Shown here: positions 13,293-57,127 of the stretch, piece by piece
Layout of the letters: each line of letters begins with the position of its first letter
Numbering within the stretch: position 1 is the first letter of the stretch
DNA from: an uncultured bacterium
GTDB lineage: Bacteria; B130-G9
Direction of reading: 5' to 3'
DNA: 58,715 bases
Assembly (NCBI GenBank): GCA_964480475.1
Contig: CAYZPW010000004.1
Span: 1-58,715 of the forward strand
The notes under the pieces: generated by a model
Database searches by the model: none
Told to the model about the DNA's origin: nothing
What the model saw: only the letters and a program-made list of their open reading frames with translations
Made by a program: the position numbers and the translations under genes

Positions 13293-13460
13293 CCCCCATC
13301 TTAAGATGGGGGTTAGGACAATCGTAGCCGTCTGCATCGCCTCGGCTGAAGCCGGGCGATGGGATGGCCCGTGCCGAGAGTTCATCCCTCCGAATCACCG
13401 CGTTTCAACGCGGTGATATAGATGGTTCCAATTATCCTAACCCCCGAATTCATTCGGGGG
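13293..13460. repeat. Array of four hairpins beside TnpA (REP/IS200-end-like)
   Basis: CCCCCATCTTAAGATGGGGG (13293-13312), ATCGCCTCGGCTGAAGCCGGGCGAT (13336-13360), ATCACCGCGTTTCAACGCGGTGAT (13394-13417), CCCCCGAATTCATTCGGGGG (13441-13460). Confidence 0.8.
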
Positions 13461-13511
13461 ACCTGAGAGGGCGACGCGACTCCCCCTCCTCTCTCCTCTT
13501 TTCTGGTCATT

Positions 13512-13949: not shown

Positions 13950-14003
13950 CTCTCCGTCTCCATCGTGGATATTGATTCAGTCGCTGCGCGTCGCGTGACT
14001 TTC

Positions 14004-14585: not shown

Positions 14586-14604
14586 TTCTGCTCGCGCGCC
14601 TCAT

Positions 14605-15198: not shown

Positions 15199-15262
15199 GC
15201 TGACTCACCCTCATCAGTCGCAGGCCGGAGGCCGGAGATTCGCCGAACGGCGAATTGGCGGT

Positions 15263-26356: not shown

Positions 26357-29238
26357 TATCGGTTCTCTCCGTTTCTCAATTGGGATGTTGCTATCTCAAA
26401 TGAAGTAGCCCTGGCGGCCGAGTAGAGGTCGTAAGTGCCGGATAATGTCACGGCGCCATAGGCAGAGTACTGCCCTGACGGAAAATGCTCTGTAATAGAC
26501 ATCTCAGCGACCTGGAAGAACAAGTCAGTTCCGGTCATGGCGAAAAACGGGAAGCCCACTATGTCCGATGTAAAGCCCAGACCATCGAAGAAAAGAAATC
26601 CCCCAGGGGTATCGATTGCTAAATAGACATCGATGCGGACCGACGGACCCTTGTGCTCAAGGCGCGCATCGAGTCTAAGTGTATCGCCGGGCACGAAAAC
26701 GGTGCCATTGACCAAGGGGAAGAGCGCCGGATACAGTCTTCTACAGAGCGTTATCTCCGTTATCTTAGTCTGGCCCCCGATGAGCAGAACGTCGAGTTCC
26801 TCGTATGGTTTGTAGGTAGGGGCGGAGACGTCAAGAGAGTATGAGCCTGCGGGCAGGTTCTCTATCGTGAACCTGCCGTCTGTGCCCGTTCGCACAGTTG
26901 ACGTCGTCGAGTCAAGGGCAACGAGCGCAGATTGAACCGGCTCGCCCGTTACAGCATCCAAAACCCGGCCCATGAGGGTCCCCGTCGTCCCCACATCCCC
27001 AAGTCTGAAGACGCCGCCGCCCTGGGTGGCTGCGTAAAGGACTGACCCGTCCGCGGAGATGTCAAGCGCCGTTATCGCTCGGTTCTCAAGGCCATCATTT
27101 ATGTGCATCCAGACCCCGCCGGCATCCTCCGACACGTATGCGCCGGTGTGCCAGTCGCCCGCAAAGACCCGATCGCTGTCGAGTGGATCGACCGCGAGGC
27201 CCCGCACCGTCGCCTCGGCATCTAAGCCGACATTAACCTGCATCCAGCTCAAACCGCCGTCCTGGCTCTTGAATATCCCGGCGTTTTCAGCCCCCGCGTA
27301 TAACACGTCCGGGTTGTTGGGGTCTATGGCTATTGACCTGATGTCCATTCTGGTTATCCCGGAGTTTATGTGAATCCAGTGTCCTCCGCCGTCAACTGTC
27401 TTGTAAACGCCGGAGTTGAGCGTCACGGCATAGGCGGTGTCGGGGTCGTGCGGGTGCACAACGATGGCGTTGATGTTCTTTGTGGTCTTCTCCAGACCAT
27501 CGTTCATCTGAACCCAGGTATCGCCCCCGTCCGTCGATTTATAGACCCCCATGCTCGGCCGGGTGGTATCGTAAGGGGTCATTCGGTCGAACTCGATCGT
27601 CTTATCGGGTATCCTCGCGCCTGCATATATAACCGAGGGATCCGAGGGCGCAAAGACAACTGTCTTGATCCCATGAAGAGAAAGAGGGTAGTGGACCTGG
27701 TCAACTGGAATGATGACCAGCAGGATCTCCCAGGATTCCCCGCGGTCCTGAGTCCTGTATAGCTCCCCGTAGAACTGGTCGGCAGCAAGGACAACGTTTG
27801 GCTCGTCCGGTTTGACGCAAACGGCCGACCACTCGGGCCTTGGTTGGACGCCGGACATTCCCCCGGTTCCCAACCAGTTGAGGCCGCCATCAAAGCTCTT
27901 GAACGGGCCGGGTCGCCCCACGGCAAATACAACGGACGGACTGTAGGGGTCCATGGCGATGTCAGTCAGCTCGGCGCCAGTGAAACCGTTCATTGCGTTC
28001 ATCCAGGTGGCGCCGGCGTCCAAAGACAAATACAGCCCGCCCGTGTAGGAGTTCACAAACACCTTGTCCGGGTTGGTGGGGTCGATCGTTATGGTTATCG
28101 GAACACCTGAATAGACGTCCGGTAGGCCCAGAGGCATCGTATCCCACGACTCTCCTCCATCGTAGCTTCTCGCAAACTGCCATTCGCTTGATGCGTAGAT
28201 GATGTCAGGATCGCTCCGGTCAACCTCCACTGCGTTCCAACAGCGATACGCCGGCCCGATCTCCGTCCAGCTCTGGCCCCCATCCGTGGTCTTTAGGATG
28301 GAGCCGTGCCGTGGCTCTGGCTCTGGGCCGAAACCCTCGTGCCGGCCCGTCGCGCAGAAGAGCGTGTTGTGGTCGAACGGGTGCATAGTCAGGCCCCCAA
28401 CCACAAGGTTATCAATGCCATTGTTGATATGATACCACGTGGCGCCTCCGTCATCGGACTTAAGTATGCCCTCGGGGACCACGTCCCACCTATCAAATAT
28501 GCCGGTTGCCGTATAGACAACGTCCGTGTCCTCGGGGTCGATCACGATGTACCGAACCAGGGCGTCGCAGTCCAAAACCGTGAACCAGTTGTCCCCACCG
28601 TCGGTCGTCTTGAATATCATGCCTCGCGACTTGTTCTGGCCGATGAGCGGAATCTCCACCCCAGTATAGACGATGTTTGTGTCGTCGGGGTTGATCGTGA
28701 ACGACCTGAACGACATGCCCTCCAGGTCGGGTATCCCGCGGTCCATCTTGACCCAGCTCTCGCCCTTGTCGAATGACTTATAGACCCCACGCATCCCATA
28801 CGTCCCGCACCAAACTATGTTGGAGTCGTATGGGTCAATCGTGCAGCAGAAAATCGGAACCGAGTCGAGCGACGGCCCGAATCTGCTTGTGATGCCCTCG
28901 TTTCTCGGGTACCATGTATAGCCGCCATCGTAGCTCTTGCACATGCCCGCCCACTGGTCGGTTGTATAGACGATGTTGGGGTCCCGCGGGTCGATGCGTG
29001 TGTCGTAGCCCAGCCCCCCGGGCGGTCCCAACGTCGATGTCCACCTGAGGGGTCTAGGCTCCTGAGCCCAAGCGCTCGGGAGTATGAAGAGGCCCCCCAA
29101 AACTAGGATAAGGATGAAGCTCCAGGAAAACTTCGCCCCGAAGCGCGGATGGCATCCAGATGCTAGGCTGCGGGCAAATGCTTGAAAGGCTACTCCCACG
29201 TCGTCAATCTCCCCCGAAATGGAATGTCTCGGTCTCAC
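26356..29238 (-). CDS. Exported BNR/VPS10-like beta-propeller protein with carboxypeptidase-regulatory-like domain and shared terminal module
   Basis: Many SxDGGxTW Asp-box repeats; GTLMGRVLDA..GEPV domain; C-terminal FVPGD..IDVYLAIDTPGG module. Confidence 0.85.
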   Translation of the reverse strand: MRPRHSISGEIDDVGVAFQAFARSLASGCHPRFGAKFSWSFILILVLGGLFILPSAWAQEPRPLRWTSTLGPPGGLGYDTRIDPRDPNIVYTTDQWAGMCKSYDGGYTWYPRNEGITSRFGPSLDSVPIFCCTIDPYDSNIVWCGTYGMRGVYKSFDKGESWVKMDRGIPDLEGMSFRSFTINPDDTNIVYTGVEIPLIGQNKSRGMIFKTTDGGDNWFTVLDCDALVRYIVIDPEDTDVVYTATGIFDRWDVVPEGILKSDDGGATWYHINNGIDNLVVGGLTMHPFDHNTLFCATGRHEGFGPEPEPRHGSILKTTDGGQSWTEIGPAYRCWNAVEVDRSDPDIIYASSEWQFARSYDGGESWDTMPLGLPDVYSGVPITITIDPTNPDKVFVNSYTGGLYLSLDAGATWMNAMNGFTGAELTDIAMDPYSPSVVFAVGRPGPFKSFDGGLNWLGTGGMSGVQPRPEWSAVCVKPDEPNVVLAADQFYGELYRTQDRGESWEILLVIIPVDQVHYPLSLHGIKTVVFAPSDPSVIYAGARIPDKTIEFDRMTPYDTTRPSMGVYKSTDGGDTWVQMNDGLEKTTKNINAIVVHPHDPDTAYAVTLNSGVYKTVDGGGHWIHINSGITRMDIRSIAIDPNNPDVLYAGAENAGIFKSQDGGLSWMQVNVGLDAEATVRGLAVDPLDSDRVFAGDWHTGAYVSEDAGGVWMHINDGLENRAITALDISADGSVLYAATQGGGVFRLGDVGTTGTLMGRVLDAVTGEPVQSALVALDSTTSTVRTGTDGRFTIENLPAGSYSLDVSAPTYKPYEELDVLLIGGQTKITEITLCRRLYPALFPLVNGTVFVPGDTLRLDARLEHKGPSVRIDVYLAIDTPGGFLFFDGLGFTSDIVGFPFFAMTGTDLFFQVAEMSITEHFPSGQYSAYGAVTLSGTYDLYSAARATSFEIATSQLRNGENR

Positions 29239-31210
29239 TTGTCATCAAGATGTCTTCGAGCTGCAAGCCTTTCTCATCGGCCACGTCCTTGAAGACTTTC
29301 CGATAGATAAGCCGCGCATCGACCGTCGCGGTGTTTGCGGCCACTGGCAAGCGGAATTCGTAGGTTGAAAAATCGGATTGAAGCGCGGGGATGCGGGTGT
29401 CGGACAGGATCATCGTCTGCCGCCACGACGGGGCGGGGTGATTGCCAAGCTGGTCAACCAGTATCTTGGCGAACATCTTCCCCGGGCGCCCGGCGAAGTC
29501 CCGTGGCCCGCCGCCCGTGCCGCCATAACCCAGCACAACTTGCTCCCCGACGAACTCAAGCTCGTTGCCGTCGCGATCGAAGGCGTTGACAAGTAGTATG
29601 ATGTTGCGTATCGGCCTGCCGGTAGGAAGATGATGTCCTGCAAAGGCGTTGAACACCTCGACTGTCGCCACAAGGCGGTTGTCCGGTTCCTTTGAGGCCG
29701 CAATTGATAGTATCGCCGATTCGTAGTGCAGCGAGATGCTGTCCTCTCCCATGATGAGATGAGAAGGGATGGTGTCCGGGTCTCTCTCCCTCGCGTGGCT
29801 GAGAGGAGCGAAGTTCTTGGTGATCCCATCCGGCCTGTAGTGGCAGGCCTGGCACTGTATGCCCATTTCCTTATATTCGCTGGCTTCCCACTCGGGGAAC
29901 GATGTGTATGTCGGCACGCCCCAGAACTCACAAGCGTGGCAAGGTGCGCATATCTCGCTTCTCTTCATCAGGGGCAGGAAGGTGCTTATACGCCCAGCAT
30001 CTTTGATGGGTCCCAGCACAATCCAGCGGTCAGGGAACGGACGGCGCAATTCAATTGCGTTAATGCCATAGACCGTGCCCGGGTTAGACAGATCGACGTC
30101 GATGATCTTATGGCAGAAATCACAGAAGACGCCTTGCTGACCCAACGGACTGAGATTAGCCATATCCGAATCGTATGGCGATTTGAGCGCCTCAGAGGGA
30201 GCGTGGCAAAGCGCACAGCTGCCTGCCGTCTCCGGGAAATCGAGCTTGTAGCCAAGCCCAACGCCAGGGTTACCGCCAACGTCGGCCCCAGTATAAAGCG
30301 TCTGAAAAATAGCATTGCTGGCGGAGCGAGCGTGGAAATTGGCGGACCACTGCTGAAACGGAGGGGTAAGGCATTTCATGCAATTGAATTGGTGGTCGGA
30401 TACGGACGGTATCGGCGGAACCCATTCATATTCCTCGTTATCAACCGGGGTTATTGGGTCCAGGGATAGCACGACGCTAGTGGTTGGCGTGAGAACCTCA
30501 ACAGCGGCGCAATAATACTCGTATTTCCAGCCAGAGACGTCGAGTCGCACGTCGCATGGAACACCCTCAAGAACGAATCTGCCATCTCTGTCGCTCTGAA
30601 CCTCATTCGACGAGGCGCGCACCTTTACCGTCGCAGATGAGGCGGGGCCGTTCTCATCGAATATCTGACCGGAGATGATGCAGTGCTGCGGGTCAAAAGT
30701 GAACGATTCGGCACTGAACGTGACGGGCAGGAGAGTGTCAGCAGAAGTCAGCATTCCCCATAGCCAATACTCACCTTGAGGCAGGCTCAGATCGTGCCTA
30801 AGAATGGCCCTATAGACAAGTGTCTTAGGAAGCATACCATGCCGCGTGATATGAAAGCCTCTCGCTGCGGGAACCGGAGAGGGGGAACCCATCCAGCTCG
30901 CCTCGACCAGGCTGCCTTTTTCGACCATCAGGCCCGAGAATGACAAGTCTGGAAGCAAGCAGTATAACCTCCCGTCCGGCAGCTCCAGGCCAAGATACAT
31001 ATCGACGGCAACATCCTCCTGAGGCGGGCAAATCTCGACGTAGAGCCTCAACCGATCCCAGGTGATGTAGTGGACCTTTTCGGCGAAGAACCTGATCGAG
31101 AGGTCTTCATAGCTCAAGGACGTTTGCCCCGTGACAAGCAAAGGCAAGCCACAGGAACACAAACCGGTCATTACGACTATAAGGCACTTGATGTGCCGAG
31201 CACAGGTCAT
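29204..31210 (-). CDS. Exported multiheme c-type cytochrome (c554-like) with N-terminal shared module
   Basis: CALCH, CDFCH, CAPCH, CQACH plus one CMKCL; GHHLPTG; carboxypeptidase-regulatory-like domain; start 31210 or 31237. Confidence 0.85.
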   Translation of the reverse strand: MTCARHIKCLIVVMTGLCSCGLPLLVTGQTSLSYEDLSIRFFAEKVHYITWDRLRLYVEICPPQEDVAVDMYLGLELPDGRLYCLLPDLSFSGLMVEKGSLVEASWMGSPSPVPAARGFHITRHGMLPKTLVYRAILRHDLSLPQGEYWLWGMLTSADTLLPVTFSAESFTFDPQHCIISGQIFDENGPASSATVKVRASSNEVQSDRDGRFVLEGVPCDVRLDVSGWKYEYYCAAVEVLTPTTSVVLSLDPITPVDNEEYEWVPPIPSVSDHQFNCMKCLTPPFQQWSANFHARSASNAIFQTLYTGADVGGNPGVGLGYKLDFPETAGSCALCHAPSEALKSPYDSDMANLSPLGQQGVFCDFCHKIIDVDLSNPGTVYGINAIELRRPFPDRWIVLGPIKDAGRISTFLPLMKRSEICAPCHACEFWGVPTYTSFPEWEASEYKEMGIQCQACHYRPDGITKNFAPLSHARERDPDTIPSHLIMGEDSISLHYESAILSIAASKEPDNRLVATVEVFNAFAGHHLPTGRPIRNIILLVNAFDRDGNELEFVGEQVVLGYGGTGGGPRDFAGRPGKMFAKILVDQLGNHPAPSWRQTMILSDTRIPALQSDFSTYEFRLPVAANTATVDARLIYRKVFKDVADEKGLQLEDILMTSETETFHFGGD

Positions 31211-31282
31211 GAAACTACCCCCGGATCTATCCAACAATTAATATGCGCCACGTCAACACTGAACGTCAAGGCTGAACGCCCC

Positions 31283-42845: not shown

Positions 42846-42928
42846 CCCAACTGGAGGCGAGCTCGGCACGTGCGAGCCGTCAAAGTTCGCCCGCGGGTGA
42901 AAAGAGCTATGGGAGCGGAGGCTCTCCG
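42846..42928. repeat. Dispersed repeat family (CCCAACTGGAGGCGAGCTC...TGGGAGCGGAGGCTCTCCG), copy 1
   Basis: Second copy at 46247-46346; overlaps the last codons and stop of the 42907..45078 gene. Confidence 0.7.
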
Positions 42929-45078
42929 TCGAATGTGAACGGCGCGGTTGCGATGTCGGTTATCATGTTGAACGTGCCTTGCTCGAACATGGCCGTCATC
43001 CAGGTGTAATCGCCCCCATAGAAATCCGGCGGGAAATCGTATATCAGGACGAAGACCATCGGGACCGTAGTGCCCGACGGGAGCATCCCACTCATGAACG
43101 GCTCTGGCATGTCCCCGCCCGGGTAGTAGAACAGCGAGCCGTCCGGCAGCTGACACGCCACCTGGATGTCGATCAACACGTCCGGGCCAGGGTTCTCGTA
43201 TGTCAGCGCGACCGTCATCGTGTCGCCCGCGTGATAGAGCTCTGCGTCCGTCGAGATGGTTATCGTCGGCTTCGCCGGCTGGAGGCCCGACTCGCGGCAT
43301 ACCAGCCCGGTCGGCGTTGCGAACCACACGTCACCGTTGGGCGCGGCGGAGATGTCGCGTATCTTGTTCGCCGGAAACCCGGTATCGGTGTCCCACATGG
43401 TCCACTCGTTCCGGTCGAAATAACCAAGCCCGTCGTCTGTGCCGACCCAGATATTGTTCGCCCCGTCGCACTCGATGCAGTTGATCCAATTTGACGGCAG
43501 GCCGTCATCGACCGTGTACCAAGCGAGTTCATTCTCGCCGTCGAACTCCAGGACACCCATCGTACTGACATCAAAACCTATCCAGAGCAGGCCGTCGTTG
43601 TCGCAGGCGATTGTGCTTGCCCAGGGATACTCAGGCCGCCAATCAACGAGTGCGTCGTTTTGCAGCACAGCGATGCCCTGATCGGTGCCGACCCACACCT
43701 TTCCCTCCAGGTCAGAAGCGATAGACAAAGGGCGGATAGACGGTGATGCGCCCCAAACGCTCCACGACTGCCAGGTGTTATTCGCGTTGTGTTTGGCCAC
43801 ACCGCCGGCACAACATATCCACATATTGTCGTTCATATCCCGGCAAATGTCCTTGCAAGAGTCAAGTCCTATGCCACCGGTACCTGCTCTGCGATAGTCG
43901 ATCATCATGCCTCGCCACACCTTTAGATTCGAGCTGCACGCCAGCCAGATTGACTCGCCGGGACCGAACTCGATGTCGCGAACCTCCCAGCCGTATGTGA
44001 TCTCGGGTTGATATATCACCTCCCATCGGGAGCCGTCGTGGTAGCCAAGCTGACCGCTGCCCGTCCCGTAGAAGAGCTGGCCCCGATCGTTTACCGCCAC
44101 CGATGATATATCATTGTTAATGACCGAGCTCTCAGCGCCCGTGTAGCAGCTCCATAGGCCATTCTTGTATCGAGCGAGCCCTGCCGTGGTTGTGAAATAG
44201 ACGGAGCCATCCGCTCCTGAGGCTATCCCACCGATTCCGTTGGAGGGCAGGCCGCTGTTCAACGTGTTAAAGACGGTCCAATTCTCCCCATCGAACATCG
44301 AGACTCCCACAGGCAGAAAGTCTCCAACCCATACCCGGCCCAGGATGTCAACGTCCAGGTATTCCGGCCAATTGCCTGCCAGGCCGTCTGACATGACATA
44401 CGACCGCACAAACTCCCCATCCTGGAACACACTCACTTTCTCGGTAATCCCCCCCGCGAGCCACACCTCGCCCGGCGACCGAGCGGCCATATCGTCGACC
44501 AGACCAACGTGTTGCTCAAACAGGGTCCACTCTCCGTCGTGGTATCTGGCCAGGACGTCACTAAAGACGAACCAGCCGGTCCCGTCAGCCTCAAAACAGA
44601 TTTCCCTGGCTAATTTCGTCAATGGGCAGTCGGATACCTCATCCCATACCCCATTCTCAAAGCGCATCAGCACCCAGACCCAGCCCTGACCCTCTTTTCG
44701 ACGCACGCTGGCCCAGACGGGGCCGTCAGGCGAGGCTGCCAGCTCCCGTACGGAGCCCTCCAACATATAGACCCTGGTCTCGCCCTGATAGAGGCGCCAG
44801 GGGTGGCTGGAGCAGAACCAGACGCCATCGAAGGCATCTACCACGACGCTCCCGGAGTCGGACGTTGGCAGCTTGTAACTCACTATCTCCTCTGTGGACG
44901 GATCGAAACCTTTCATATCCGACCCGAGCTGATACCAAACCACGCCGTGCGAATCCACGGCGGCGTGCCCTCCGCCCACCAAGGGATTCTGGTAGAGCGT
45001 AAACTCCTGCGCGAACGCGATTGACACAACAAGCAAAGCAGCAAATAGAAAACATGCAGCAATTCTCATCTTAAGCAC
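42907..45078 (-). CDS. Exported Reg_prop-type beta-propeller protein with shared terminal module
   Basis: Signal peptide; repeats NSGLPSNGI, GLPSNWI, VWVGT..G; C-terminal YHAGD..IDIQVACQLPDGSLFYYP module. Confidence 0.85.
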   Translation of the reverse strand: MLKMRIAACFLFAALLVVSIAFAQEFTLYQNPLVGGGHAAVDSHGVVWYQLGSDMKGFDPSTEEIVSYKLPTSDSGSVVVDAFDGVWFCSSHPWRLYQGETRVYMLEGSVRELAASPDGPVWASVRRKEGQGWVWVLMRFENGVWDEVSDCPLTKLAREICFEADGTGWFVFSDVLARYHDGEWTLFEQHVGLVDDMAARSPGEVWLAGGITEKVSVFQDGEFVRSYVMSDGLAGNWPEYLDVDILGRVWVGDFLPVGVSMFDGENWTVFNTLNSGLPSNGIGGIASGADGSVYFTTTAGLARYKNGLWSCYTGAESSVINNDISSVAVNDRGQLFYGTGSGQLGYHDGSRWEVIYQPEITYGWEVRDIEFGPGESIWLACSSNLKVWRGMMIDYRRAGTGGIGLDSCKDICRDMNDNMWICCAGGVAKHNANNTWQSWSVWGASPSIRPLSIASDLEGKVWVGTDQGIAVLQNDALVDWRPEYPWASTIACDNDGLLWIGFDVSTMGVLEFDGENELAWYTVDDGLPSNWINCIECDGANNIWVGTDDGLGYFDRNEWTMWDTDTGFPANKIRDISAAPNGDVWFATPTGLVCRESGLQPAKPTITISTDAELYHAGDTMTVALTYENPGPDVLIDIQVACQLPDGSLFYYPGGDMPEPFMSGMLPSGTTVPMVFVLIYDFPPDFYGGDYTWMTAMFEQGTFNMITDIATAPFTFDGEPPLP

Positions 45079-49319: not shown

Positions 49320-50138
49320 GTGGCCGCAGCTCCGGACGGGATCGAGCGGGTTGAGCAGAACGGGCTTGTGTATTTCCGTTCAACACGCCTTCAGGGTCTT
49401 GGCGTTCCTCACCTTTTCACGACGCGCCACAGCACGCGAGTCGGCGCACACGCAGAATGGGACCTGGGGTTCAAGGGCCGCGCCGACCCTGAGGCTGTCA
49501 TCCGAGCGAGAGAGTTTGCCTGTCAGGTCCTGGGGGCTGATCTCTCCAGATTGACGGTTACCCAGCAGGTGCATTCTGGACGCGCGGTTGTTGTCGAGGA
49601 ACGTGATGTCGGCCGAGGGGCATCCGGGCCGCAGGACACGATACCCGGCGCGGACGGCATGGTCACGGACGTGCCCGGCGCAGTGCTTCTGATCCTCACA
49701 GCCGATTGCCTCCCCGCTCTGCTGTTCGACCCCGGGGGACGAGTAGGCGCATTCCACGCCGGCTGGCGGGGAGCGCTTGCAGGGATTGCTCAGAATACGG
49801 TCAGGCTAATGGTCGGGCGTTGTGGCTCAAATCCACGTGATTTGACTGCGGTTCTGGGTCCTGCGATTCGGCAGTGTTGCTTCGAGGTGGGCCCAGACGT
49901 CGCAGAGAGATTCAACCTGGCCTCAGGAGGCAAGAAGCGGCAGACCGTCATCACACGTGAGGGACGCTTCTTCGTTGACTTAGCGGCATTTGTCAAAAGC
50001 GAGCTTGTGGCTGTGGGGCTTGAAGAAAAGAACATCATCGACGTCGGACTTTGCACGTCTTGCCTGCCCGAGCTGTTCTACTCCTATCGCCGCGACCGGC
50101 GCCTCATCGGCTCACAAGGCGCAATGATTCGCAGGTAA
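49320..50138 (+). CDS. pgeF: Peptidoglycan editing factor PgeF / YfiH-family polyphenol oxidase-like protein
   Basis: QVHS, TADCLP, HAGWRG, GPAIRQCCFEVG, CTSC..FYSYRR. Confidence 0.93.
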   Translation: MAAAPDGIERVEQNGLVYFRSTRLQGLGVPHLFTTRHSTRVGAHAEWDLGFKGRADPEAVIRAREFACQVLGADLSRLTVTQQVHSGRAVVVEERDVGRGASGPQDTIPGADGMVTDVPGAVLLILTADCLPALLFDPGGRVGAFHAGWRGALAGIAQNTVRLMVGRCGSNPRDLTAVLGPAIRQCCFEVGPDVAERFNLASGGKKRQTVITREGRFFVDLAAFVKSELVAVGLEEKNIIDVGLCTSCLPELFYSYRRDRRLIGSQGAMIRR

Positions 50139-50303: not shown

Positions 50304-53300
50304 ATGTATAGAGTTTTGCTCACTTTGGCAGTTCTGGTGTTGTCAGTTGGTTTGCAGGCTGAACCTCTGACCCTACAGCCGTACGAGTCGCTCGTCGGGC
50401 CGCTTCCGGAATCAACCCTAATTCCTGAAGAGGTTGACCGAGCGCTTCGATCTGGTCCAGGAGAGTCGGGTGTGCCGGTAGCGCTTGAGGGAGACGGCGA
50501 CTACATACGAGACCTGACGCTCAGAACGCTCCTCTCTCCTTCGGCGCAGGAGTCGCTTGACATCGTGCCCGAGTGGCTAAGGATTGACCTCTACGACATG
50601 TTCACGCGGATGTCGCAGAACGATCAAGAGGATTACGGACAGCTTCTCCTCTCAGTATCCGACCCGCGCCTCATCGACGAGGTAGCGTTTACGATCGCGC
50701 ATTCGTCGAGATCGATCCTGAGCTCTTCCGATCCAGACCTCTACGTCGTGAACGCTCAGCTTCTGTATCAGGTTGATCCCGAGATATCGTATGCCGACAT
50801 CTTGGACTATGGCGAGCCGGGCGTCGATCCCGACTACTACTCGACGATTCTTTACACGTCGATAGTCAGCGGCGCGACTGTTCGATACGAGCTCCCACTC
50901 GACATCTACTACTGGTTCGTGGTTCATCCGAAGCTGGGCGATGAGGACCCGTCGATGAGCCCGACGCTCACCGAACAAACCAGCACTTACGGCTACTTCT
51001 GGCGCGAATATCTTTTCTACAATCCGTCGGAGGAGTTTGATTACACTATCTACCGCATAACTAAGTTCCCAAACATGCTCGAGGTGACAGACGTGGACAG
51101 CTGGGGACCTACTGCTGTTGGATATCTTGAGGATGGCTCGCGACAGTGTCCTGAAGGCATCATCGTGGGCGGTCCGGGCATTGAGAGGCCGGTCTTGGTG
51201 GAATACAACTGGAGTTACGGCCGGATCGTGATGACGACCATGGACCTGGAGCGGGCCTACAACGCTGGACACCGGGAGGCTCTTGAGAATGTCCTAATGC
51301 GCTCCAGCGGACACGAGAGCGAATTCATGGTTCCATACACGGGCAGCGGGTACTTCGACCAAATAGGGATTATCGAGGAGACCGGCGACGCGCAGGTACT
51401 TAATCCCATCTTGCAGGCCCTGGACGACAACGGTATCCGTTATATAGTGTTAACAGTCGATGAGATAGTCCAGATAGAGAGGTGGGAGGAATACTTCACG
51501 AAGATCCTCATCCCCTCCTACCAAGATCGTGACACATACGAGGCCATCGCTTCTGAGGGTTTCATGGCCAAACTCAATGAGTGGGTGGGAATAGTCGGCG
51601 GGACGGTGGAGTTCCATGGGGCCTGCGATCCTGAGAACGACTGGTCGGACCTTCAGCTCTTCAAACTGAGCTACGTAGCGGATGAGATAGACGACGTGGC
51701 GATCAATCGCTTTCCGGTGCTTGGAGAGGTCATCGGTTGCGCGACTCACGTCTGGGACGACAGCTACTTAAGAGCTGGCCTCCCCCGCTACCGCCCATTC
51801 GAGGAAGACTCGATGGCGGTTGACGTTATCACCAACTGGGCGTCCAGAATGCTGTGGATTCAGGCAAGGGGGAATCGCCCGCTCCAGCCGAATCAGATAT
51901 GTTTCGAGCACAACGGCAACTGCGGCGAGATTCAGGACCTGATCAACGCCGCTGCCAGAACGTGCTTGGTTCCGTCGGCTGGGGTCAACAACCACACCTG
52001 GGACCACGTATCCTGTGAGTTTTGGGATCGGGACTGGCACGGGTACCAGGTCGGATGGAATGTTGGCAGCGCCTCGATAGCCAACCAGGGCGTCCTGTCG
52101 GACAAGGACCTCGGAGGCGGCAAGGACTTATCGGCCATATTGCAGGACCGAGGCGATACTTGGCCGGTCAATGCGACCGAAAGATACAGCGAGATATGCC
52201 GGTTCCACGTCAGGGTTGAGGATGTTAACGGCAATCCCGTTGACTGCGCAGAGATTTGGCCCTATGTTTACGATTTCAACGATCCTACCAGGGACCTGAA
52301 GTGCCCTCTGATAGCCTATACCGATTCTTCAGGGGAGGTAATAATGGACCTGGGCAACAAGCGCGACTTCTGGTTCAGAGTGAAGAGCCGAGCCGGTGAT
52401 GTCCACCGTCCCCAGGAGCCGCTTCTTACAGACACCGTTGCGGGCCAGGACTACGAACACACCTTCGTGGTCGATGGCTTCATGCCTCAGCTGCCGGACA
52501 TCGAGGCGATCGAGTTTCCACCCGTTCCGCAGTCTCCCTATGGGTTGTTTGTCTCATACAACGTCGATTACGAGACGCAATACAGCCTCAGTATGGGGTC
52601 ATTCGGGAACAAGAACTATGACGCTGGAAACGTCGACTTCTTCATCCTGAAGTCGGACGATTTCAACAAGTATAGCGATGGCGAGGCGTTTTCGGCCTAC
52701 GAGTGGCGGCACGACTCGGCTGGGGATGAGTTTGAAGTTGACGTCCCAGATGACGAGGTCTATTACCTGGTGTTCTCGAACGAGGACACGCTCATCGTGA
52801 AGGAGTTTGTGTCGATCTTTCTGCAAGTATATCAAAACAATGGCGGGGCCTGGACCCCGGCCGAGAGCTACTCCAACTTCGTCGGGATACCCGCCGGGGA
52901 TTCCTACGTCATTATGTTCAACAACAGGTTGGCGCCAAGCGTCTATGCAGCGGGCTTTTTCGATGCCGAGGTCGATTCATCGGGCAGCTTCGAGCTCGGC
53001 GTTCAGGCGTTCGTGCTCGACCCCAGCGGCCCGCACGACGTGCGCGAGGTCGAGCTTTGCTACGGTGGTGTGCCGCTTGGCAGGTACCTCAAGGATGACG
53101 GTAGATATGATGACGCCATCGCTGGCGACGGGATATTCACGTTTTCGGAGCGCCACATGCCCGGCACGCTCTATCCCGGCGTCTATAAGCTGGAGATAGT
53201 CGCGACCGACATGGCCGGCAACAAGAGCATCTCGTGGCCATATCTGAACGTCCTCTCTATTCCGCTGCGCCTCACGAGCCCAACCTGCTCAATGAACACG

Positions 53301-53657
53301 AACATCTGGCAGCCGGCCGCGACCGCCGATTCTGCCCCGGTGATACTTGGCGGCGGCTTCTTTGGCCGAGACGCGATTCCGCCGGGCGGCATCTTTCGCA
53401 TAATCGTCTATGCGGACGACCCGGACGGCCTCTCAGACATCGATCGCGTCGAGCTCTTCCTTGAGGGCGGCGTCCCGACGGGCGTCCTACTACACGACGA
53501 CGGCGCCGATGGCGATGACCACGCAGGAGACGGCATCTATACGTTCCAGACTTCCATGCCGCCTGGTATCCCGCCGGGCCCACTGACGCTCGAGGTCGTA
53601 GCCTTCGACAAATCAGGCAACATAAGCGCCAGGTATCCGTATTTCACTGTGAGATAG
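50304..53657 (+). CDS. Exported transglutaminase/PNGase-fold protein, paralog 1, with two choice-of-anchor-X-like domains
   Basis: ATG 50304 after GGAGAGG; signal peptide; GNCGE and WDHVSCEFW; two DDG..D..AGDGI(F/Y)TF domains. Confidence 0.75.
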   Translation: MYRVLLTLAVLVLSVGLQAEPLTLQPYESLVGPLPESTLIPEEVDRALRSGPGESGVPVALEGDGDYIRDLTLRTLLSPSAQESLDIVPEWLRIDLYDMFTRMSQNDQEDYGQLLLSVSDPRLIDEVAFTIAHSSRSILSSSDPDLYVVNAQLLYQVDPEISYADILDYGEPGVDPDYYSTILYTSIVSGATVRYELPLDIYYWFVVHPKLGDEDPSMSPTLTEQTSTYGYFWREYLFYNPSEEFDYTIYRITKFPNMLEVTDVDSWGPTAVGYLEDGSRQCPEGIIVGGPGIERPVLVEYNWSYGRIVMTTMDLERAYNAGHREALENVLMRSSGHESEFMVPYTGSGYFDQIGIIEETGDAQVLNPILQALDDNGIRYIVLTVDEIVQIERWEEYFTKILIPSYQDRDTYEAIASEGFMAKLNEWVGIVGGTVEFHGACDPENDWSDLQLFKLSYVADEIDDVAINRFPVLGEVIGCATHVWDDSYLRAGLPRYRPFEEDSMAVDVITNWASRMLWIQARGNRPLQPNQICFEHNGNCGEIQDLINAAARTCLVPSAGVNNHTWDHVSCEFWDRDWHGYQVGWNVGSASIANQGVLSDKDLGGGKDLSAILQDRGDTWPVNATERYSEICRFHVRVEDVNGNPVDCAEIWPYVYDFNDPTRDLKCPLIAYTDSSGEVIMDLGNKRDFWFRVKSRAGDVHRPQEPLLTDTVAGQDYEHTFVVDGFMPQLPDIEAIEFPPVPQSPYGLFVSYNVDYETQYSLSMGSFGNKNYDAGNVDFFILKSDDFNKYSDGEAFSAYEWRHDSAGDEFEVDVPDDEVYYLVFSNEDTLIVKEFVSIFLQVYQNNGGAWTPAESYSNFVGIPAGDSYVIMFNNRLAPSVYAAGFFDAEVDSSGSFELGVQAFVLDPSGPHDVREVELCYGGVPLGRYLKDDGRYDDAIAGDGIFTFSERHMPGTLYPGVYKLEIVATDMAGNKSISWPYLNVLSIPLRLTSPTCSMNTNIWQPAATADSAPVILGGGFFGRDAIPPGGIFRIIVYADDPDGLSDIDRVELFLEGGVPTGVLLHDDGADGDDHAGDGIYTFQTSMPPGIPPGPLTLEVVAFDKSGNISARYPYFTVR

Positions 53658-53662
53658 AGCCG

Positions 53663-53692
53663 TTGATGCCGGGCCCCTGTAACGTGTATAAT
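53663..53692 (+). promoter_or_regulatory. Candidate own promoter of paralog 2
   Basis: TTGATG-18 nt-TATAAT in the 128-bp gap between the paralogs. Confidence 0.45.
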
Positions 53693-53785
53693 GCTCGGCA
53701 AGTATCGATAATTCATACACGGGTGAATCGCTTTTCCGGCGTGATACTTGTCAGGTCACACCGGCAATCGTGAGGAGAACATAGG

Positions 53786-56700
53786 ATGAGAAGAATAGTC
53801 TTGTCAGCAGCGATTTTTTGCTTGGCAGCGGGCTTGCAGCTCGCCAGCCAAGCGGGGCCGTATTCGGTTCCGGCCCAGCCGCTTCCAGGCATGGTTGCGG
53901 CGCCTGACGTTGAACATCAGACCCAGGAGAGAGCGTCCCATAATGGCGTATTGGTCGCACTTGACGGGCGGGGCGACCACCTGCGGGACCTAACATCTAG
54001 GGCGGCCATTTCGCCGTCAGCGGAGGAGTCGCTCGAGATCGTGCCCGACTGGCTCAAGATGGACCTTTACGATATGTTCACGCGGATGGCGCAGAGCGAT
54101 CAGGAAGATTACGGACAGCTGCTGCTCTCGATATCCGATCTGCGCCTCATCGACGAGGTGGCTTTCACGATTGCCCACTCGTCAAAGAGCGTCCTGAGCC
54201 AAACGGACCCGGACCTTTATGTGCGAAACGCCGAGCTTCTGTATCAGATCGATCCAGAGATACCCTACGCTGACATTGTGGATTACGGCGAGGCGGGTGT
54301 GGACCCCGACTTTTACTCTACGGTTCGATACTGGACGATCAGAGACGGCGAGATGGGCCAGTTCGAGCTTCCACTTTCCATTTACTACTGGTTTGTGGTG
54401 CATCCCAAGCTCGGCAAAGAGGACCCATCGATGAGTCCCCAGCCAAGGGAGAATGCGAACACTTATGGCTACTTCTGGCGCGAATACCTCTTCTACAACC
54501 CGTCGGAGGAGTATGACTACAGCCTCAGCTACATGACCAGAGAGCCAAACAGGATAGACGAGTCTGACGTTGACGGCTGGGGGCCTACCGCGGCCGGATA
54601 CCTCGTGGACGGCTCAAAGAAGTGCCCTGACGGCGTGATAGTCGGCGGGCCTGGCATTGAGAAGCCCGTGCTTGTGGAATACATCTGGGGCCAGACTCGC
54701 GTCATCGTTACCACCATGGAAGTTGAGCGGGGCCATGCCGCGGGCAAGGGGGACATGCTGGAGAACCTGACCATGCGTTCAAACGGCCAGTGGGCCGACC
54801 TCCTTTTGAGACAGGGGATCGATCCAGATTACTACGACCAGGTGGCAATTGTCGATGGTTCGGGCGATTGGGGTATTCTGTCCCCGATACAAGAGGTCTT
54901 GGATGACAACGGGATACCCAATTGGGTCATTTCCGCTGAAGAGATGCTTGATGCCGGCCAATGGGGATACTTCTCCAAGGTGATCATCCCCTCACACCAG
55001 AGCCGGTCGTTTTACGAGACAGTTGCCAGCGCCGAGTTCATGGACAACTTCGAATCGTGGGTAGATTTCCGAGGCACGTTAGAGTTCCACGGAGCTTGCG
55101 ATCCTGAAGAGTCATGGGCGGACCTTGAGCTCTTCAAGCTCGGCTACGCGCCGGAGGAGCTCGACGACGTTGCGCTCTACGGCTTTCCCGTCCTTAGCGA
55201 GGTGATAGGCAACGCTAGTTACCTCTGGGATGACAGCGTCAAGAACGCCTCGCTGCCCGGTTCAAGGCCGTTTGAGCCCAATTCGATGGCTGTCGATGTC
55301 ATCTCCAACTGGACTTCCAGGACGATCAATTTCCGCGCAAGAGGCAGTCGGCCGAGTCAGCCCAACCAGATATGCTTTGAGCACGACGGCAACTGCGGCG
55401 AGATACGCTACCTACTCCACGCCGCAGCCAGAACCTGCCTTGTGCCCACAGCGGGCGTCTGCAACAACTCGTGGGACCACGTGACGTGCGAGTTCTGGGA
55501 GCAAGACTGGTATGGCTACCAAGTCAACTTCAACGTCGGCGGCGCCATGATAGCGGATCAAAGGGTGCTTAACGACAAGGACTATGGCGGAACCAGGGAC
55601 TTGTCTGCGATTGAGCAGGACCGAGGCGACAGCTTCCCCGTGAATGCGACGGCGAGATACAGCAAGTCCTGCCGCTTCCATGCGAAGGTTCAGGACCTTG
55701 TTGGCAATCCCGTTGACTGCGCCATGGTTAGGCCCTGGGTTCGCTGGAAGAACCAGCCCAGCGAACCGCTGGACAGCCCGCTGTGCGCGTATACCGATTC
55801 TTCAGGCGAAGTGGTCCTGGACCTGGGCGACCATCGCGACTACTGGTTCGACGTCGAGAGCAGGGCGGGCGATGCGCCCAAAGAGCAGCTCTTGACGGAT
55901 ACTCAGGAGGGTATGGACTACTATCATACCTGGACAATTGAGGAGGGAGTAGTTCCCCAGCTGCCCGAGATCGAGCCGATAGAGTTCCCGTCAGCTCCGC
56001 AGCACCCATACAAGCTGCACGTCTCATTCAGAGCTGATTATGAGACCCTGTATAGTGTGAGTGCGCTGACGTTCGCGGAGAAAAAGGAGGACACGGCCAA
56101 CGTCGATTTCTTCATTCTCGACGCCGACAACTTCAGGAAGTATAGCCAGAAGGAGCCCTTCTCCGCGTATGAATGGCGAGAGGATTACAGGTCCGATGAG
56201 TTTGAGGTCGAGATTCCCGATGATGAGATCTACTACCTGGTCTTCTCGAACGAAGATACCCTTCTCGCCAGGCAATTCGTGACGATAGCCGTCTCGGCGT
56301 TCAAGAACGATGGCCAAACCTGGATTCCCCTTGAAAGCTACTCGAACTTCGTGGGGATACCGGCACAAGATGCCTACGTCATTATGTTCAACAACCTCGT
56401 CGCACCGAGCGTCTATGCGGCGGGCTTCTTCGAGGCACAGGTCGATTCCTCGAGCAGCTTCGAGTTCGGCGTTCAGGCGTTTGTGCTTGACCCGAACGGC
56501 CTGCACGACGTGCGGGACGTCGAGCTTTGCTACGGAGGCGTGCCGCTCGGCAAGTTCCTCAAGGACAACGGAAGGTCAGGCGACGCGCTCGCCGGCGACG
56601 GCATCTTCACGTTCTCGGAGCGTTACATGCCGGGCACGCTCTATCCAGGCGTCTATAAGCTGGAGATCGCCGCGACCGACATGGCCGGCAACACGAGCGT

Positions 56701-57127
56701 CTCGTGGCCTTATCTCAACGTCCTCTCGACTCCGCTGCGCCTCACAGGCCCAACCGGCCCGATGAATACGGACATCTGGCAGCCGGCCGCGACTGCCACC
56801 GGCGCCCCGGTGATACTCGGCGGCGGATTCTTTGGCCGAGACTCCGTGCAGAAGGGGGATACCGTCCGCGTAATCGCCTTTGTGGATGACCCGGACGGCC
56901 TCTCAGACATCGATCGCGTCGAGCTCTTCCTCGAGGGCGGCGTCGCAACAGGCATCCTACTGCACGACGACGGCGCCGATGGCGACGACCACGCCGGCGA
57001 CGGCATATACACCTTCCAGACGCTCATGCCAGCAGGTATCGGAAGCGGCAACCTGACCCTGGAGCTCGTAGCCTTCGACGAGTCCGAAAACTCCAGCGCC
57101 ACATATCCATACTTCACCGTGAGGTAG
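53786..57127 (+). CDS. Exported transglutaminase/PNGase-fold protein, paralog 2
   Basis: Collinear with paralog 1 over its full length; GNCGE, WDHVTCEFW, same duplicated tail. Confidence 0.75.
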   Translation: MRRIVLSAAIFCLAAGLQLASQAGPYSVPAQPLPGMVAAPDVEHQTQERASHNGVLVALDGRGDHLRDLTSRAAISPSAEESLEIVPDWLKMDLYDMFTRMAQSDQEDYGQLLLSISDLRLIDEVAFTIAHSSKSVLSQTDPDLYVRNAELLYQIDPEIPYADIVDYGEAGVDPDFYSTVRYWTIRDGEMGQFELPLSIYYWFVVHPKLGKEDPSMSPQPRENANTYGYFWREYLFYNPSEEYDYSLSYMTREPNRIDESDVDGWGPTAAGYLVDGSKKCPDGVIVGGPGIEKPVLVEYIWGQTRVIVTTMEVERGHAAGKGDMLENLTMRSNGQWADLLLRQGIDPDYYDQVAIVDGSGDWGILSPIQEVLDDNGIPNWVISAEEMLDAGQWGYFSKVIIPSHQSRSFYETVASAEFMDNFESWVDFRGTLEFHGACDPEESWADLELFKLGYAPEELDDVALYGFPVLSEVIGNASYLWDDSVKNASLPGSRPFEPNSMAVDVISNWTSRTINFRARGSRPSQPNQICFEHDGNCGEIRYLLHAAARTCLVPTAGVCNNSWDHVTCEFWEQDWYGYQVNFNVGGAMIADQRVLNDKDYGGTRDLSAIEQDRGDSFPVNATARYSKSCRFHAKVQDLVGNPVDCAMVRPWVRWKNQPSEPLDSPLCAYTDSSGEVVLDLGDHRDYWFDVESRAGDAPKEQLLTDTQEGMDYYHTWTIEEGVVPQLPEIEPIEFPSAPQHPYKLHVSFRADYETLYSVSALTFAEKKEDTANVDFFILDADNFRKYSQKEPFSAYEWREDYRSDEFEVEIPDDEIYYLVFSNEDTLLARQFVTIAVSAFKNDGQTWIPLESYSNFVGIPAQDAYVIMFNNLVAPSVYAAGFFEAQVDSSSSFEFGVQAFVLDPNGLHDVRDVELCYGGVPLGKFLKDNGRSGDALAGDGIFTFSERYMPGTLYPGVYKLEIAATDMAGNTSVSWPYLNVLSTPLRLTGPTGPMNTDIWQPAATATGAPVILGGGFFGRDSVQKGDTVRVIAFVDDPDGLSDIDRVELFLEGGVATGILLHDDGADGDDHAGDGIYTFQTLMPAGIGSGNLTLELVAFDESENSSATYPYFTVR

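What the first reader, a model, noticed from the sequence alone, without database searches (positions are those of the whole stretch)
50304..57127. Tandem giant exported PNGase/transglutaminase-fold paralogs with a Cys-His-Gln variant triad
Seen: both have GNCGE (Cys codons 51921 and 55394) and DHV(S/T)CEFW, which align by recall with peptide:N-glycanase GRCGE...DHVWCEY...WxHxD. Both have Gln (WHGYQ, WYGYQ) where the catalytic Asp is expected. Each ends in two DDG..D..AGDG domains closing with (W/Y)PY(L/F)xV, a second candidate anchor type distinct from the shared module. Tails are more alike at DNA level than the middles, by eye. They lie directly downstream of pgeF. Inference: envelope cross-linking, deglycosylating or amidase enzymes with diverged specificity.
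Basis: partly seen in the sequence, partly recalled or inferred. Interest (0 to 1): 0.7.

Follow-up and report, generated by a model that had tools for sequence, protein, structure and literature searches.

The report
Tandem secreted PNGase-like cysteine enzymes
Two neighbouring genes of an uncultivated Coatesbacteria bacterium encode large secreted enzymes whose catalytic core most resembles the eukaryotic deglycosylating enzyme PNGase, with glutamine in place of the usual aspartate; they belong to a large family that nobody has studied, so what they act on is unknown.

Summary
The sequence observations are all confirmed. Genes A (50304..53657) and B (53786..57127) encode 1117- and 1113-aa paralogs, 64% identical, each with a signal peptide.

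**Core.** A profile of the family core matches only peptide:N-glycanases in the PDB (mouse PNGase, E 3.6e-8). It aligns Cys540/His568/Gln582 of A (Cys537/His565/Gln579 of B) with the PNGase Cys/His/Asp triad.

**Third residue.**
- Cys and His are kept in 183 of 184 representatives.
- In the nearest relatives the third column is Q 100, E 44, D 23.
- In a broader sample of species genomes it is E 45, D 32, Q 15. Gln is therefore a derived, tolerated replacement of the acidic residue.

**C-terminal domains.** The DDG..AGDG domains are the known NCBIfam "choice-of-anchor X" motif on Ig-like domains. They are not shown to be an anchor.

**Tails.** The tails are more alike than the bodies at synonymous sites, and their relationships conflict with those of the bodies. 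This indicates an old tail homogenisation.

**Family.** It has at least 628 clusters at E<=1e-30. All 106 verified genomic hits come from MAGs of many bacterial phyla and Thermoplasmatota. No member has been studied.

**New here.** Gene A carries a ~720-bp divergent internal cassette (51024..51743).

**Verdict.** These are probably active secreted cysteine amidohydrolases with an unknown substrate: a new variant of a known kind, of moderate interest.

The parts
50304..53657 (+). Gene A: 1117-aa secreted PNGase-like transglutaminase-fold protein (A-type paralog)
   Evidence: ORF and ribosome-binding site; homologs 52-85% identical in Coatesbacteria MAGs; AlphaFold mean pLDDT 78.9.
53786..57127 (+). 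Gene B: 1113-aa paralog (B-type), 64% identical to A
   Evidence: The A-then-B order is conserved in L001, L005 and L006.
50304..50360 (+). Signal peptide of A (MYRVLLTLAVLVLSVGLQA|E), followed by a disordered linker to residue ~64
   Evidence: Read from the sequence. The model has a helix at 2-16 and then pLDDT<50 for residues 15-64. No signal-peptide predictor was available.
53786..53842 (+). Signal peptide of B (MRRIVLSAAIFCLAAGLQLASQA|G region)
   Evidence: Read from the sequence.
50496..51023 (+). Conserved N-terminal domain of A (aa 65-240; helical bundle plus beta-sheet, many invariant Tyr/Trp), with no Pfam model
   Evidence: An HMM of this segment is found in 185 of 186 family proteins. 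Invariant residues are listed. No Pfam hit at E<=1. The only weak fold resemblance is to IMPa.
51024..51743 (+). Divergent internal cassette of A (aa 241-480; beta region plus flavodoxin-like alpha/beta domain)
   Evidence: Nucleotide identity to the ortholog in L005 is 55-67% here, against 82-99% in the flanking 40-codon windows. The segment is 40-52% identical to every sampled family member. The alpha/beta domain is an optional insert, present in 98 of 186 members.
51744..52193 (+). PNGase-like transglutaminase core of A (aa 481-630), with Cys540 (51921-51923), His568 (52005-52007) and Gln582 (52047-52049)
   Evidence: Pfam PF01841 18.7 bits, below the cutoff of 23. Profile against PDB finds PNGases only. 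The model places Cys at the N-terminus of helix 540-553, His in strand 568-574 and Gln in strand 578-583. Codons.
52194..52922 (+). Two beta-sandwich domains of A after the core (aa 631-873)
   Evidence: DSSP on the model. Conserved with the core in 185 of 186 members. The first sandwich matches PDB 3e8v 'possible transglutaminase-family protein', E 1.6e-5.
52923..53654 (+). Tail of A: two Ig-like domains carrying the choice-of-anchor X motif (aa 874-985 and 1011-1117)
   Evidence: NCBIfam NF041940, 36.7 bits against a cutoff of 25, two stretches. Motifs. Tail homogenised with B.
55217..55666 (+). PNGase-like core of B (aa 478-627), with Cys537 (55394-55396), His565 (55478-55480) and Gln579 (55520-55522)
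   Evidence: Pfam PF01841 20.0 bits, below the cutoff of 23. Alignment to A without gaps in this stretch. Codons.
56393..57124 (+). Tail of B: two Ig-like choice-of-anchor X domains
   Evidence: NCBIfam NF041940, 45.2 bits. Motifs.
49320..50138 (+). Upstream YfiH/PgeF-family gene (context only)
   Evidence: PF02578, E 2.3e-65. The MMPL-pgeF-A-B order is conserved in L005 and L006 only.

Best explanation
A and B are secreted, catalytically competent cysteine amidohydrolases. They belong to a large, unnamed prokaryotic branch of the transglutaminase-like (papain-fold) superfamily whose nearest solved relatives are the eukaryotic peptide:N-glycanases.

**Shown**
- Each has a Sec-type signal peptide.
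- Each has a conserved N-terminal domain, a variable insert, a PNGase-like core, two beta-sandwiches and two Ig-like 'choice-of-anchor X' domains.
- Cys540 lies at the start of a helix. His568 and Gln582 lie on successive strands.
- Cys and His are almost invariant across the family.
- The third column varies among Gln, Glu and Asp.

**Inferred**
- The thiolate of Cys540, paired with the imidazolium of His568, attacks an amide carbonyl of an extracellular protein-linked substrate. This forms a thioester acyl-enzyme that water then resolves.
- The side-chain carbonyl of Gln582 orients His568, as Asn175 does in papain (my recall) and Asp235 does in Png1.
- The substrate is most likely an amide bond on a protein or glycoprotein: a glycosyl-asparagine, peptide or isopeptide bond. 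Degradation or remodelling at the cell surface is a plausible role, but it is a guess from location and domain content rather than a result.
- The N-terminal domain, the insert and the sandwiches choose the substrate, which is why the paralogs differ most there.
- The Ig-like tails serve a shared role, either surface retention or spacing. They were homogenised among the tandem copies by an old gene conversion.
For: - **Paralogy and architecture:**
- **PNGase relationship:** a core profile of 32 diverse members hits only PNGases in the PDB (2f4m E 3.6e-8; 1x3w 2.3e-5; 3esw 2.6e-5). A profile of 80 full-length members repeats this. The alignment continues about 60 residues past the triad (GGGK..S...RGDG....T..YS against [25 protein letters not shown]). 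I take this stretch to be the extension described for the Rad4-PNGase subgroup in PMC3495828; the correspondence was not checked.
- **Triad register:** in the mouse alignment the family's 'w-h-e-y-q' lies on 'W-L-H-C-D'. The Png1 triad is C191/H218/D235 (PMC2791212).
- **Conservation across 184 representatives:** Cys 183, His 183; third column Q 100, E 44, D 23.
- **Independent sample:** in 106 HMM-verified species-genome loci the third column is E 45, D 32, Q 15. The column is therefore the third triad position, and Gln is an accepted substitute.
- **Fold topology:** it matches the published definition of the fold.
- **Literature:** the third residue has a secondary, His-orienting role, and non-acidic variants are active in this superfamily (PMC4866520).
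- **Secretion:** signal peptides. Relatives carry T9SS sorting domains, dockerin, PKD and Ig-like domains.
- **Tail homogenisation:**
Against: - There is no biochemical evidence for any family member.
- The window proteins score below Pfam's gathering threshold for PF01841 (18.7 and 20.0 against 23).
- Fold comparison gave no hit specific to the core. The full model matched multi-Ig chains first, and TG2/FXIIIa only at E 6e-4 to 3e-3. The truncated model gave nothing below E 1e-3.
- The conserved stretch 520-539, just before the Cys, is modelled with pLDDT<50.
- A and B have Ser/Thr where most of the family, and PNGase, have Trp (DHVW). From my recall, that Trp contacts the glycan in Png1, which weakens a strict PNGase reading for these two genes.
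- No conserved neighbouring gene points to a substrate.
Confidence: 0.6

Rival explanations
1. They are true peptide:N-glycanases acting outside the cell. They would release N-linked glycans from glycoproteins by cleaving the GlcNAc-Asn amide. That would make them a prokaryotic, secreted counterpart of Png1/NGLY1 and a further class of bacterial PNGase alongside the PNGase F and PNGase A/H+ types.
For: - PNGases are the only significant PDB sequence relatives, and the similarity extends beyond the triad.
- 26 of 184 relatives carry the exact GRCGE motif of PNGase.
- E572 and W578 are conserved; the mouse alignment places W578 on the Trp of PNGase's WLHCD.
- The proteins are secreted and carry sugar-binding-like beta-sandwich domains.
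Against: - The Zn-binding Cys pairs of PNGase are absent (alignment; Zn with four Cys in Png1 per PMC2791212).
- The catalytic Asp is replaced by Gln.
- The Trp of DHVW is Ser or Thr in A and B.
- There are no glycoside hydrolases or polysaccharide-utilisation genes nearby in any locus examined.
- The organisms live in sediments and aquifers, where I expect N-glycoprotein supply to be less obvious than in the gut.
Confidence: 0.17
2. They are transglutaminases. The acyl-enzyme would be resolved by a lysine or another amine rather than water, cross-linking surface-layer, envelope or matrix proteins.
For: - The fold superfamily is the same.
- The full model matches TG2 and FXIIIa over a core-plus-beta-domain arrangement (E 5.8e-4 to 3e-3).
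- The proteins are extracellular and have adhesin-like Ig tails.
Against: - There is no sequence-level match to animal transglutaminases, even with profiles.
- The Foldseek matches are long, high-rmsd alignments (21-27 Å) ranked below generic multi-Ig chains.
- No prokaryotic member of the PNGase-like subgroup is known to me to cross-link.
Confidence: 0.13
3. They are non-catalytic binding or adhesion proteins. The transglutaminase-like domain would only bind peptide, as in Rad4 or Cyk3, and the Gln would mark loss of catalysis.
For: - Inactive versions of this fold exist (PMC3495828).
- The domain content is adhesin-like.
- The acidic triad residue is missing.
Against: - Cys and His are kept in 183 of 184 representatives. 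So are flanking G541, E542 and D567, a pattern typical of active enzymes.
- Gln, Glu and Asp interchange in one column, which argues for selection on an H-bond acceptor rather than decay.
- Amide or hydroxyl third residues support catalysis elsewhere.
Confidence: 0.07

Closest known systems
Cytoplasmic peptide:N-glycanase (yeast Png1, mouse/human NGLY1; PDB 1x3w, 2f4m)
   Same: - These are the only significant solved relatives by sequence profile (E 3.6e-8 and 2.3e-5).
- Shared motifs: G[NR]CGE, DHV.xE, and W-x3-(third residue).
- The similarity continues about 60 residues past the triad.
- The Cys and His positions are identical.
   Different: - Gln replaces the catalytic Asp.
- The Zn-binding Cys pairs are absent.
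- The protein is secreted rather than cytosolic.
- There are no PUB, PAW or Rad23-binding parts.
- It adds a conserved N-terminal domain, an alpha/beta insert, two beta-sandwiches and Ig-like tails.
- The Trp of DHVW is Ser/Thr in A and B.
Transglutaminase-like superfamily, Pfam PF01841 Transglut_core (Makarova, Aravind and Koonin 1999)
   Same: - Papain-like fold, with Cys on the N-terminal helix and His plus a third residue on successive strands.
- 30 of 44 diverse relatives match PF01841.
   Different: - The window proteins fall just under the gathering score.
- The third residue is Gln.
- The rest of the architecture has no Pfam model.
Vasohibins and other transglutaminase-like enzymes with non-canonical triads (Cys-His-Ser/Thr; SpeB backbone carbonyl)
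   Same: They set a precedent that the third position of this fold can be non-acidic while the enzyme stays active (PMC4866520).
   Different: - The subfamily and the substitute residue are different.
- A literature search for 'transglutaminase-like' together with 'Cys-His-Gln' found no paper.
NCBIfam NF041940 choice-of-anchor X domain
   Same: Both tails match above the curated cutoff, with two copies each.
   Different: By my recall, the name refers to a domain that accompanies different C-terminal anchors in different proteins. Here no anchor follows: the proteins end at the last strand of the domain.
Animal transglutaminases (TG2, factor XIIIa)
   Same: A core followed by beta-domains; weak Foldseek matches.
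   Different: No sequence-level relationship was detected. The surrounding domains are different.

Membership tests
Transglutaminase-like / papain-fold cysteine enzyme superfamily | Catalytic Cys at the N-terminus of a helix | tested here: met
   C540 starts helix 540-553 in the model. Cys is present in 183 of 184 representatives.
Transglutaminase-like / papain-fold cysteine enzyme superfamily | His and an acidic or polar third residue on successive beta-strands | tested here: met
   H568 lies in strand 568-574 and Q582 in strand 578-583. The fold definition comes from PMC3495828. The third residue is Gln rather than Asp/Glu. Side-chain geometry was not measurable.
Transglutaminase-like / papain-fold cysteine enzyme superfamily | Score at or above the Pfam PF01841 gathering threshold | tested here: inconclusive
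   A scores 18.7 and B 20.0 bits against a cutoff of 23. 30 of 44 relatives match at E<=1e-3, best 2.5e-9.
Peptide:N-glycanase (PNG1/NGLY1, EC 3.5.1.52) | Core sequence similarity including the region after the triad | tested here: met
   Profile against PDB: 2f4m E 3.6e-8, 1x3w E 2.3e-5; alignment spans profile positions 48-168. Repeated with a second profile.
Peptide:N-glycanase (PNG1/NGLY1, EC 3.5.1.52) | Cys-His-Asp catalytic triad | tested here: not met
   Gln occupies the Asp column in A and B. Some relatives do have Asp or Glu there.
Peptide:N-glycanase (PNG1/NGLY1, EC 3.5.1.52) | Zn-binding site made of four Cys upstream of the core | tested here: not met
   The family has no Cys opposite the CDAC of mouse PNGase, the only zinc-motif pair covered by the alignment. 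Zn with four Cys in Png1 is stated in PMC2791212.
Peptide:N-glycanase (PNG1/NGLY1, EC 3.5.1.52) | Cytosolic enzyme with PUB/PAW or Rad23-binding parts | tested here: not met
   Signal peptides are present. No such domains appear in Pfam or NCBIfam scans.
Peptide:N-glycanase (PNG1/NGLY1, EC 3.5.1.52) | Release of N-glycans from glycopeptides | not testable with these tools
   This needs an enzyme assay.
NCBIfam choice-of-anchor X (NF041940) | Score above the curated cutoff | tested here: met
   36.7 bits (A) and 45.2 bits (B) against a cutoff of 25, two stretches each.
Animal-type transglutaminase (TG2/FXIII) | Detectable sequence or fold relationship of the core plus beta-barrels | tested here: inconclusive
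   No sequence hit with profiles. Foldseek E 5.8e-4 to 3e-3 with rmsd above 20 Å.

The most novel reading that the evidence does not exclude
This family is the prokaryotic, secreted sister group of eukaryotic PNGase/Rad4. On this reading its members really do cleave glycan-asparagine (or similar glycan-amide) linkages outside the cell, using a Cys-His-Gln/Glu/Asp triad. That would add a new class of bacterial and archaeal N-glycanases, and a candidate prokaryotic source for the eukaryotic enzyme, since Thermoplasmatota archaea carry it. In the Coatesbacteria copies, the swappable alpha/beta cassette would retune substrate choice.
Probability: 0.12. Interest if true: 0.8.

Novelty: new variant of a known kind. 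Interest (0 to 1): 0.45.

Why it matters
If these proteins are active, they define a large enzyme family. It has at least 628 clusters at 50% identity with E<=1e-30, and 3067 at E<=1e-3. It is spread over many candidate phyla and Thermoplasmatota archaea. No cultured isolate appeared among the 106 genome loci I could verify, and no paper was found.

Its nearest solved relatives are the PNGases. The family therefore bears on where the eukaryotic deglycosylation enzyme came from. It could also yield new glycan-releasing or protein-modifying tools.

The free interchange of Gln, Glu and Asp at the third triad position is a natural experiment on how much that residue matters in this fold.

The tandem paralogs show two kinds of module exchange that can be studied in populations: a homogenised tail and a replaced internal cassette.

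Tried and rejected
- **Single-sequence search of A against PDB sequences:** nothing relevant. A family profile was needed.
- **Foldseek with the full-length model:** swamped by multi-Ig/MG-domain chains such as complement C3.
- **Foldseek with a second model of aa 60-650:** no hit at E<=1e-3, and no PNGase in the top 50. The core was poorly modelled once the downstream domains were cut off. The IMPa metallopeptidase match (E 1.7e-3, TMq 0.23) and the peptidase E / flavodoxin-like matches are too weak to build on.
- **Search for the donor of the A cassette with the cassette alone:** one irrelevant hit, and even the known family was not recovered. This is a limit of the word index, not a real negative. 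A local BLAST against 186 family proteins found no close donor.
- **The search for related loci with the diverse core alignment:** It was replaced by a degenerate DHVWNEF DNA pattern. I estimate about 35 chance matches for that pattern; 14 of the 120 loci failed the HMM check, including all three cultured isolates.
- **Calls that hit tool limits:** exceeded size limits, and one search failed on a script error.
- **pgeF/MMPL as a functional partner:** rejected, because the synteny holds only in two close relatives and not elsewhere.
- **A different nearby Asp as the third triad residue:** rejected. D575 and D577 lie in a non-conserved loop. D567 is the conserved Asp preceding His, which PNGase also has in its DHVW motif.
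- **The C-terminal YPYFTV as a sorting signal:** rejected, since the same motif closes the internal domain.

Full report
**What is there.** The window has two long ORFs on the + strand. Gene A runs 50304..53657 (1117 aa from the ATG behind a GGAGAGG ribosome-binding site). Gene B runs 53786..57127 (1113 aa). The two proteins align end to end at 64% identity. These are GNCGE with Cys at 51921 and 55394, DHV(S/T)CEFW, WHGYQ/WYGYQ, two DDG..AGDG motifs per protein, and WPYLNV/YPYFTV. The upstream gene is a YfiH/PgeF-family protein, preceded by an MMPL transporter. Both proteins begin with a typical Sec signal peptide. The model then shows about 45 disordered residues. The closest homologs come mostly from Candidatus Coatesbacteria MAGs.

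**Fold and nearest relatives.**
- Pfam Transglut_core matches both proteins just under its cutoff: 18.7 and 20.0 bits against 23.
- The same model matches 30 of 44 diverse relatives.
- A profile built from 32 diverse core segments finds only peptide:N-glycanases among all PDB sequences. These are mouse PNGase 2f4m (E 3.6e-8), yeast Png1 1x3w (2.3e-5) and 3esw (2.6e-5). A profile of 80 full-length members repeats this result.
- The alignment runs from about 15 residues before the Cys to about 60 residues after the third triad position. I take the downstream part to be the extension reported for the Rad4-PNGase subgroup (PMC3495828), but I did not check that correspondence.
- No animal transglutaminase is found by sequence.
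- In the AlphaFold model (pLDDT 78.9, pTM 0.69), Cys540 opens helix 540-553. His568 and Gln582 lie on successive strands. That is the published topology of this fold.

The fold comparison was not specific, however. The full model matched multi-Ig chains first and TG2/FXIIIa only weakly. A truncated model gave nothing significant.

**The Gln.** In the mouse PNGase alignment the family's W-x-x-x-Q lies on W-L-H-C-D. The Png1 triad is Cys191/His218/Asp235 (PMC2791212). The census of the third column gave these counts:

| Sample | Cys | His | Third column |
|---|---|---|---|
| 184 best-scoring representatives | 183 | 183 | Q 100, E 44, D 23, other 17 |
| 106 HMM-verified species-genome loci, picked by the DHVWNEF motif | – | – | E 45, D 32, Q 15, other 14 |

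Both samples are biased, in opposite directions, but they lead to three conclusions:
- The column is the third triad position.
- The acidic residue is probably ancestral.
- Gln is a recurrent, tolerated replacement that dominates in the branch holding A and B.

No alternative conserved Asp is nearby. D575 and D577 sit in a variable loop. The literature treats the third residue as a secondary, His-orienting group, and records active Ser/Thr or backbone-carbonyl variants in this superfamily (PMC4866520). No paper pairs 'transglutaminase-like' with 'Cys-His-Gln'. The near-invariance of Cys, His, G541, E542 and D567 argues for an active enzyme rather than a decayed binding domain.

**Differences from PNGase.**
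- The Zn-binding cysteines are missing.
- The proteins are secreted.
- The PUB/PAW parts are absent.
- In A and B the Trp of DHVW is Ser or Thr. It is Trp in 153 of 184 relatives and in PNGase. By my recall that Trp touches the glycan in Png1, so this is a lead, not a test.

I therefore do not file A and B as PNGases. They work like one in catalytic layout, and membership fails on three defining features.

**Architecture and family size.** Searching 1.84 billion cluster representatives with the family profile gave these numbers:

| E-value cutoff | Proteins |
|---|---|
| 1e-3 | 3067 |
| 1e-10 | 1373 |
| 1e-30 | 628 |

HMMs of the separate segments gave the following:
- The N-terminal domain (aa 65-240) is present in 185 of 186 members. 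It is rich in invariant Tyr and Trp and has no Pfam model.
- The two post-core beta-sandwiches are also present in 185 of 186.
- The alpha/beta domain (aa ~345-470) is an optional insert, present in 98.
- The double choice-of-anchor X tail is present in 38.

Elsewhere the tail is replaced by Ig-like, PKD or FG-GAP domains, dockerin, or type IX secretion sorting domains. This fits surface or secreted enzymes with interchangeable C-termini.

The tails of A and B match NCBIfam NF041940 above its cutoff, so they are a catalogued domain, not a new anchor. The proteins end at the last strand of that domain. The same closing motif also occurs internally, so it is not a sorting signal.

All 106 verified genomic hits are from MAGs: Cloacimonadota, KSB1, Calditrichota, Zixibacteria, WOR-3, Fermentibacteria, Ignavibacteria, Bacteroidota, Myxococcota, Acidobacteriota, Aminicenantes and Thermoplasmatota archaea, among others. 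The three hits in cultured isolates were chance matches.

**Genomic context.**
- The order MMPL-pgeF-A-B recurs in two close relatives, L005 and L006.
- L001 has a C-type paralog, a 215-aa gene, then A and B.
- A single-copy A-type gene sits between an ABC transporter and NeuB.
- Distant members have unrelated neighbours.

No partner gene therefore points to a substrate. Tandem or nearby paralogs recur in distant lineages, including a Thermoplasmatota archaeon.

**Tail homogenisation.**
- Between A and B, third-codon-position identity is 0.63-0.80 over the last ~250 codons and 0.34-0.62 elsewhere.
- Nucleotide identity between A-type and B-type genes is 66-67% in the core and sandwiches but 75-85% in the tail. 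Orthologs are 78-87% identical in the tail and 78-85% in the body, apart from the closest genome pair, the window and L005 (92-96% body, 87-95% tail).
- The C-type gene of L001 has a tail 78-79% identical (protein) to A-type tails, but only 63-64% identical to the tails of its own orthologs.
- Within-genome A-B tail identity is not higher than between-genome identity.

The exchange is therefore old, at or before the split of these genomes, and not ongoing.

**A new observation: the cassette in A.** Against its ortholog in L005, gene A is 82-99% identical in DNA in every 40-codon window outside codons 241-480 (mostly 93-99%). Within codons 241-480 (window 51024..51743), identity falls to 55-67% and third positions are near saturation. 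Gene B shows no such break. The L005 version of this segment resembles the other A-type genes, whereas the window's version is 40-52% identical to every sampled member. The window allele has therefore received a cassette from an unsampled relative. The alternative is a chimeric contig: this exact protein has been seen on one contig only. The cassette covers the optional alpha/beta insert, which would suit a specificity-determining module.

**Mechanism and verdict.** The best-supported reading is that A and B are secreted cysteine amidohydrolases of a PNGase-like branch of the transglutaminase-like superfamily.
- Catalysis would run through a Cys540 thioester, with His568 as the general base and Gln582 orienting it.
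- The substrate would be an amide bond on an extracellular protein or glycoprotein.
- The paralogs would differ in substrate choice and share a common tail function.

The architecture, the conservation and the PNGase relationship are shown. The chemistry and the substrate are inferred. The rivals are a true secreted PNGase, a cross-linking transglutaminase and a non-catalytic binder. An assay panel with Cys, His and Gln mutants would separate them.

This is a new variant of a known kind. It is interesting mainly for the size and obscurity of the family and its link to PNGase, and less for the Gln itself.

Noticed in passing
window 51024..51743 (gene A codons 241-480): This internal cassette is 55-67% identical in DNA to the closest ortholog (L005), while the rest of the gene is 82-99% identical. 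It is equally distant (40-52% aa) from every sampled family member. Either it is a recombinational replacement from an unsampled relative, or the assembly is chimeric; this exact protein is known from one contig only.
   Followed up: partly
L001 433..3687 (C-type paralog) versus L001 5681..9013 and 9136..12480: A third, C-type paralog lies upstream of A and B in another Coatesbacteria contig. Its tail is 78-79% identical to A-type tails but 63-64% identical to the tails of its own orthologs. Tail homogenisation therefore involved three tandem copies.
   Followed up: partly
window 51861..51920 (gene A residues 520-539, QARGNRPLQPNQICFEHNGN): The stretch just before the catalytic Cys is among the most conserved in the family; H536 is kept in 176 of 184 representatives. 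Both AlphaFold models nevertheless give it pLDDT below 50. It may be a mobile active-site loop.
   Followed up: no
window 53663..53692: A sigma-70-like promoter match (TTGATG-18-TATAAT, 10 of 12) lies in the 128-bp gap between A and B, so B may have its own promoter. This is a consensus match only.
   Followed up: no
window 994..3273 (-), 9045..10676 (-), 26356..29238 (-), 42907..45078 (-), last ~100 codons of each: Four other secreted-looking proteins in the window share a C-terminal module of about 100 aa (GD..., VDVYLA..PDG.L.F, ...G.Y.......GT......F). A similar stretch opens the gene downstream of B in L001 (12559..).
   Followed up: partly
L008 8001..11687 and 11763..15329 (Thermoplasmatota archaeon); L009 2028..5429 and 8612..11998: Tandem or nearby paralog pairs of the same family recur in an archaeon and in another uncultivated bacterium. 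Duplication of this enzyme is a repeated theme across distant lineages.
   Followed up: no
gene A residues 65-330 (window 50496..51293): The best fold match of the N-terminal part is the Pseudomonas O-glycopeptidase IMPa (5kdx_A, E 1.7e-3, probability 0.98, TMq 0.23). This is too weak to use, but it is a second hint of glycoprotein-directed enzymes.
   Followed up: no
window 22259..31237 (-): This is a run of three large secreted proteins. The first has Kelch, Big_5 and fn3 domains. The second has BNR/sortilin and CarboxypepD_reg domains. The third has a weak multihaem cytochrome match. The region is rich in surface proteins.
   Followed up: no
tool behaviour: A homolog search with the 240-aa cassette returned one unrelated protein. 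It failed to return the window's own protein or the family, which local BLAST finds at E 1e-50 to 1e-170. That negative result should not be trusted.
   Followed up: yes
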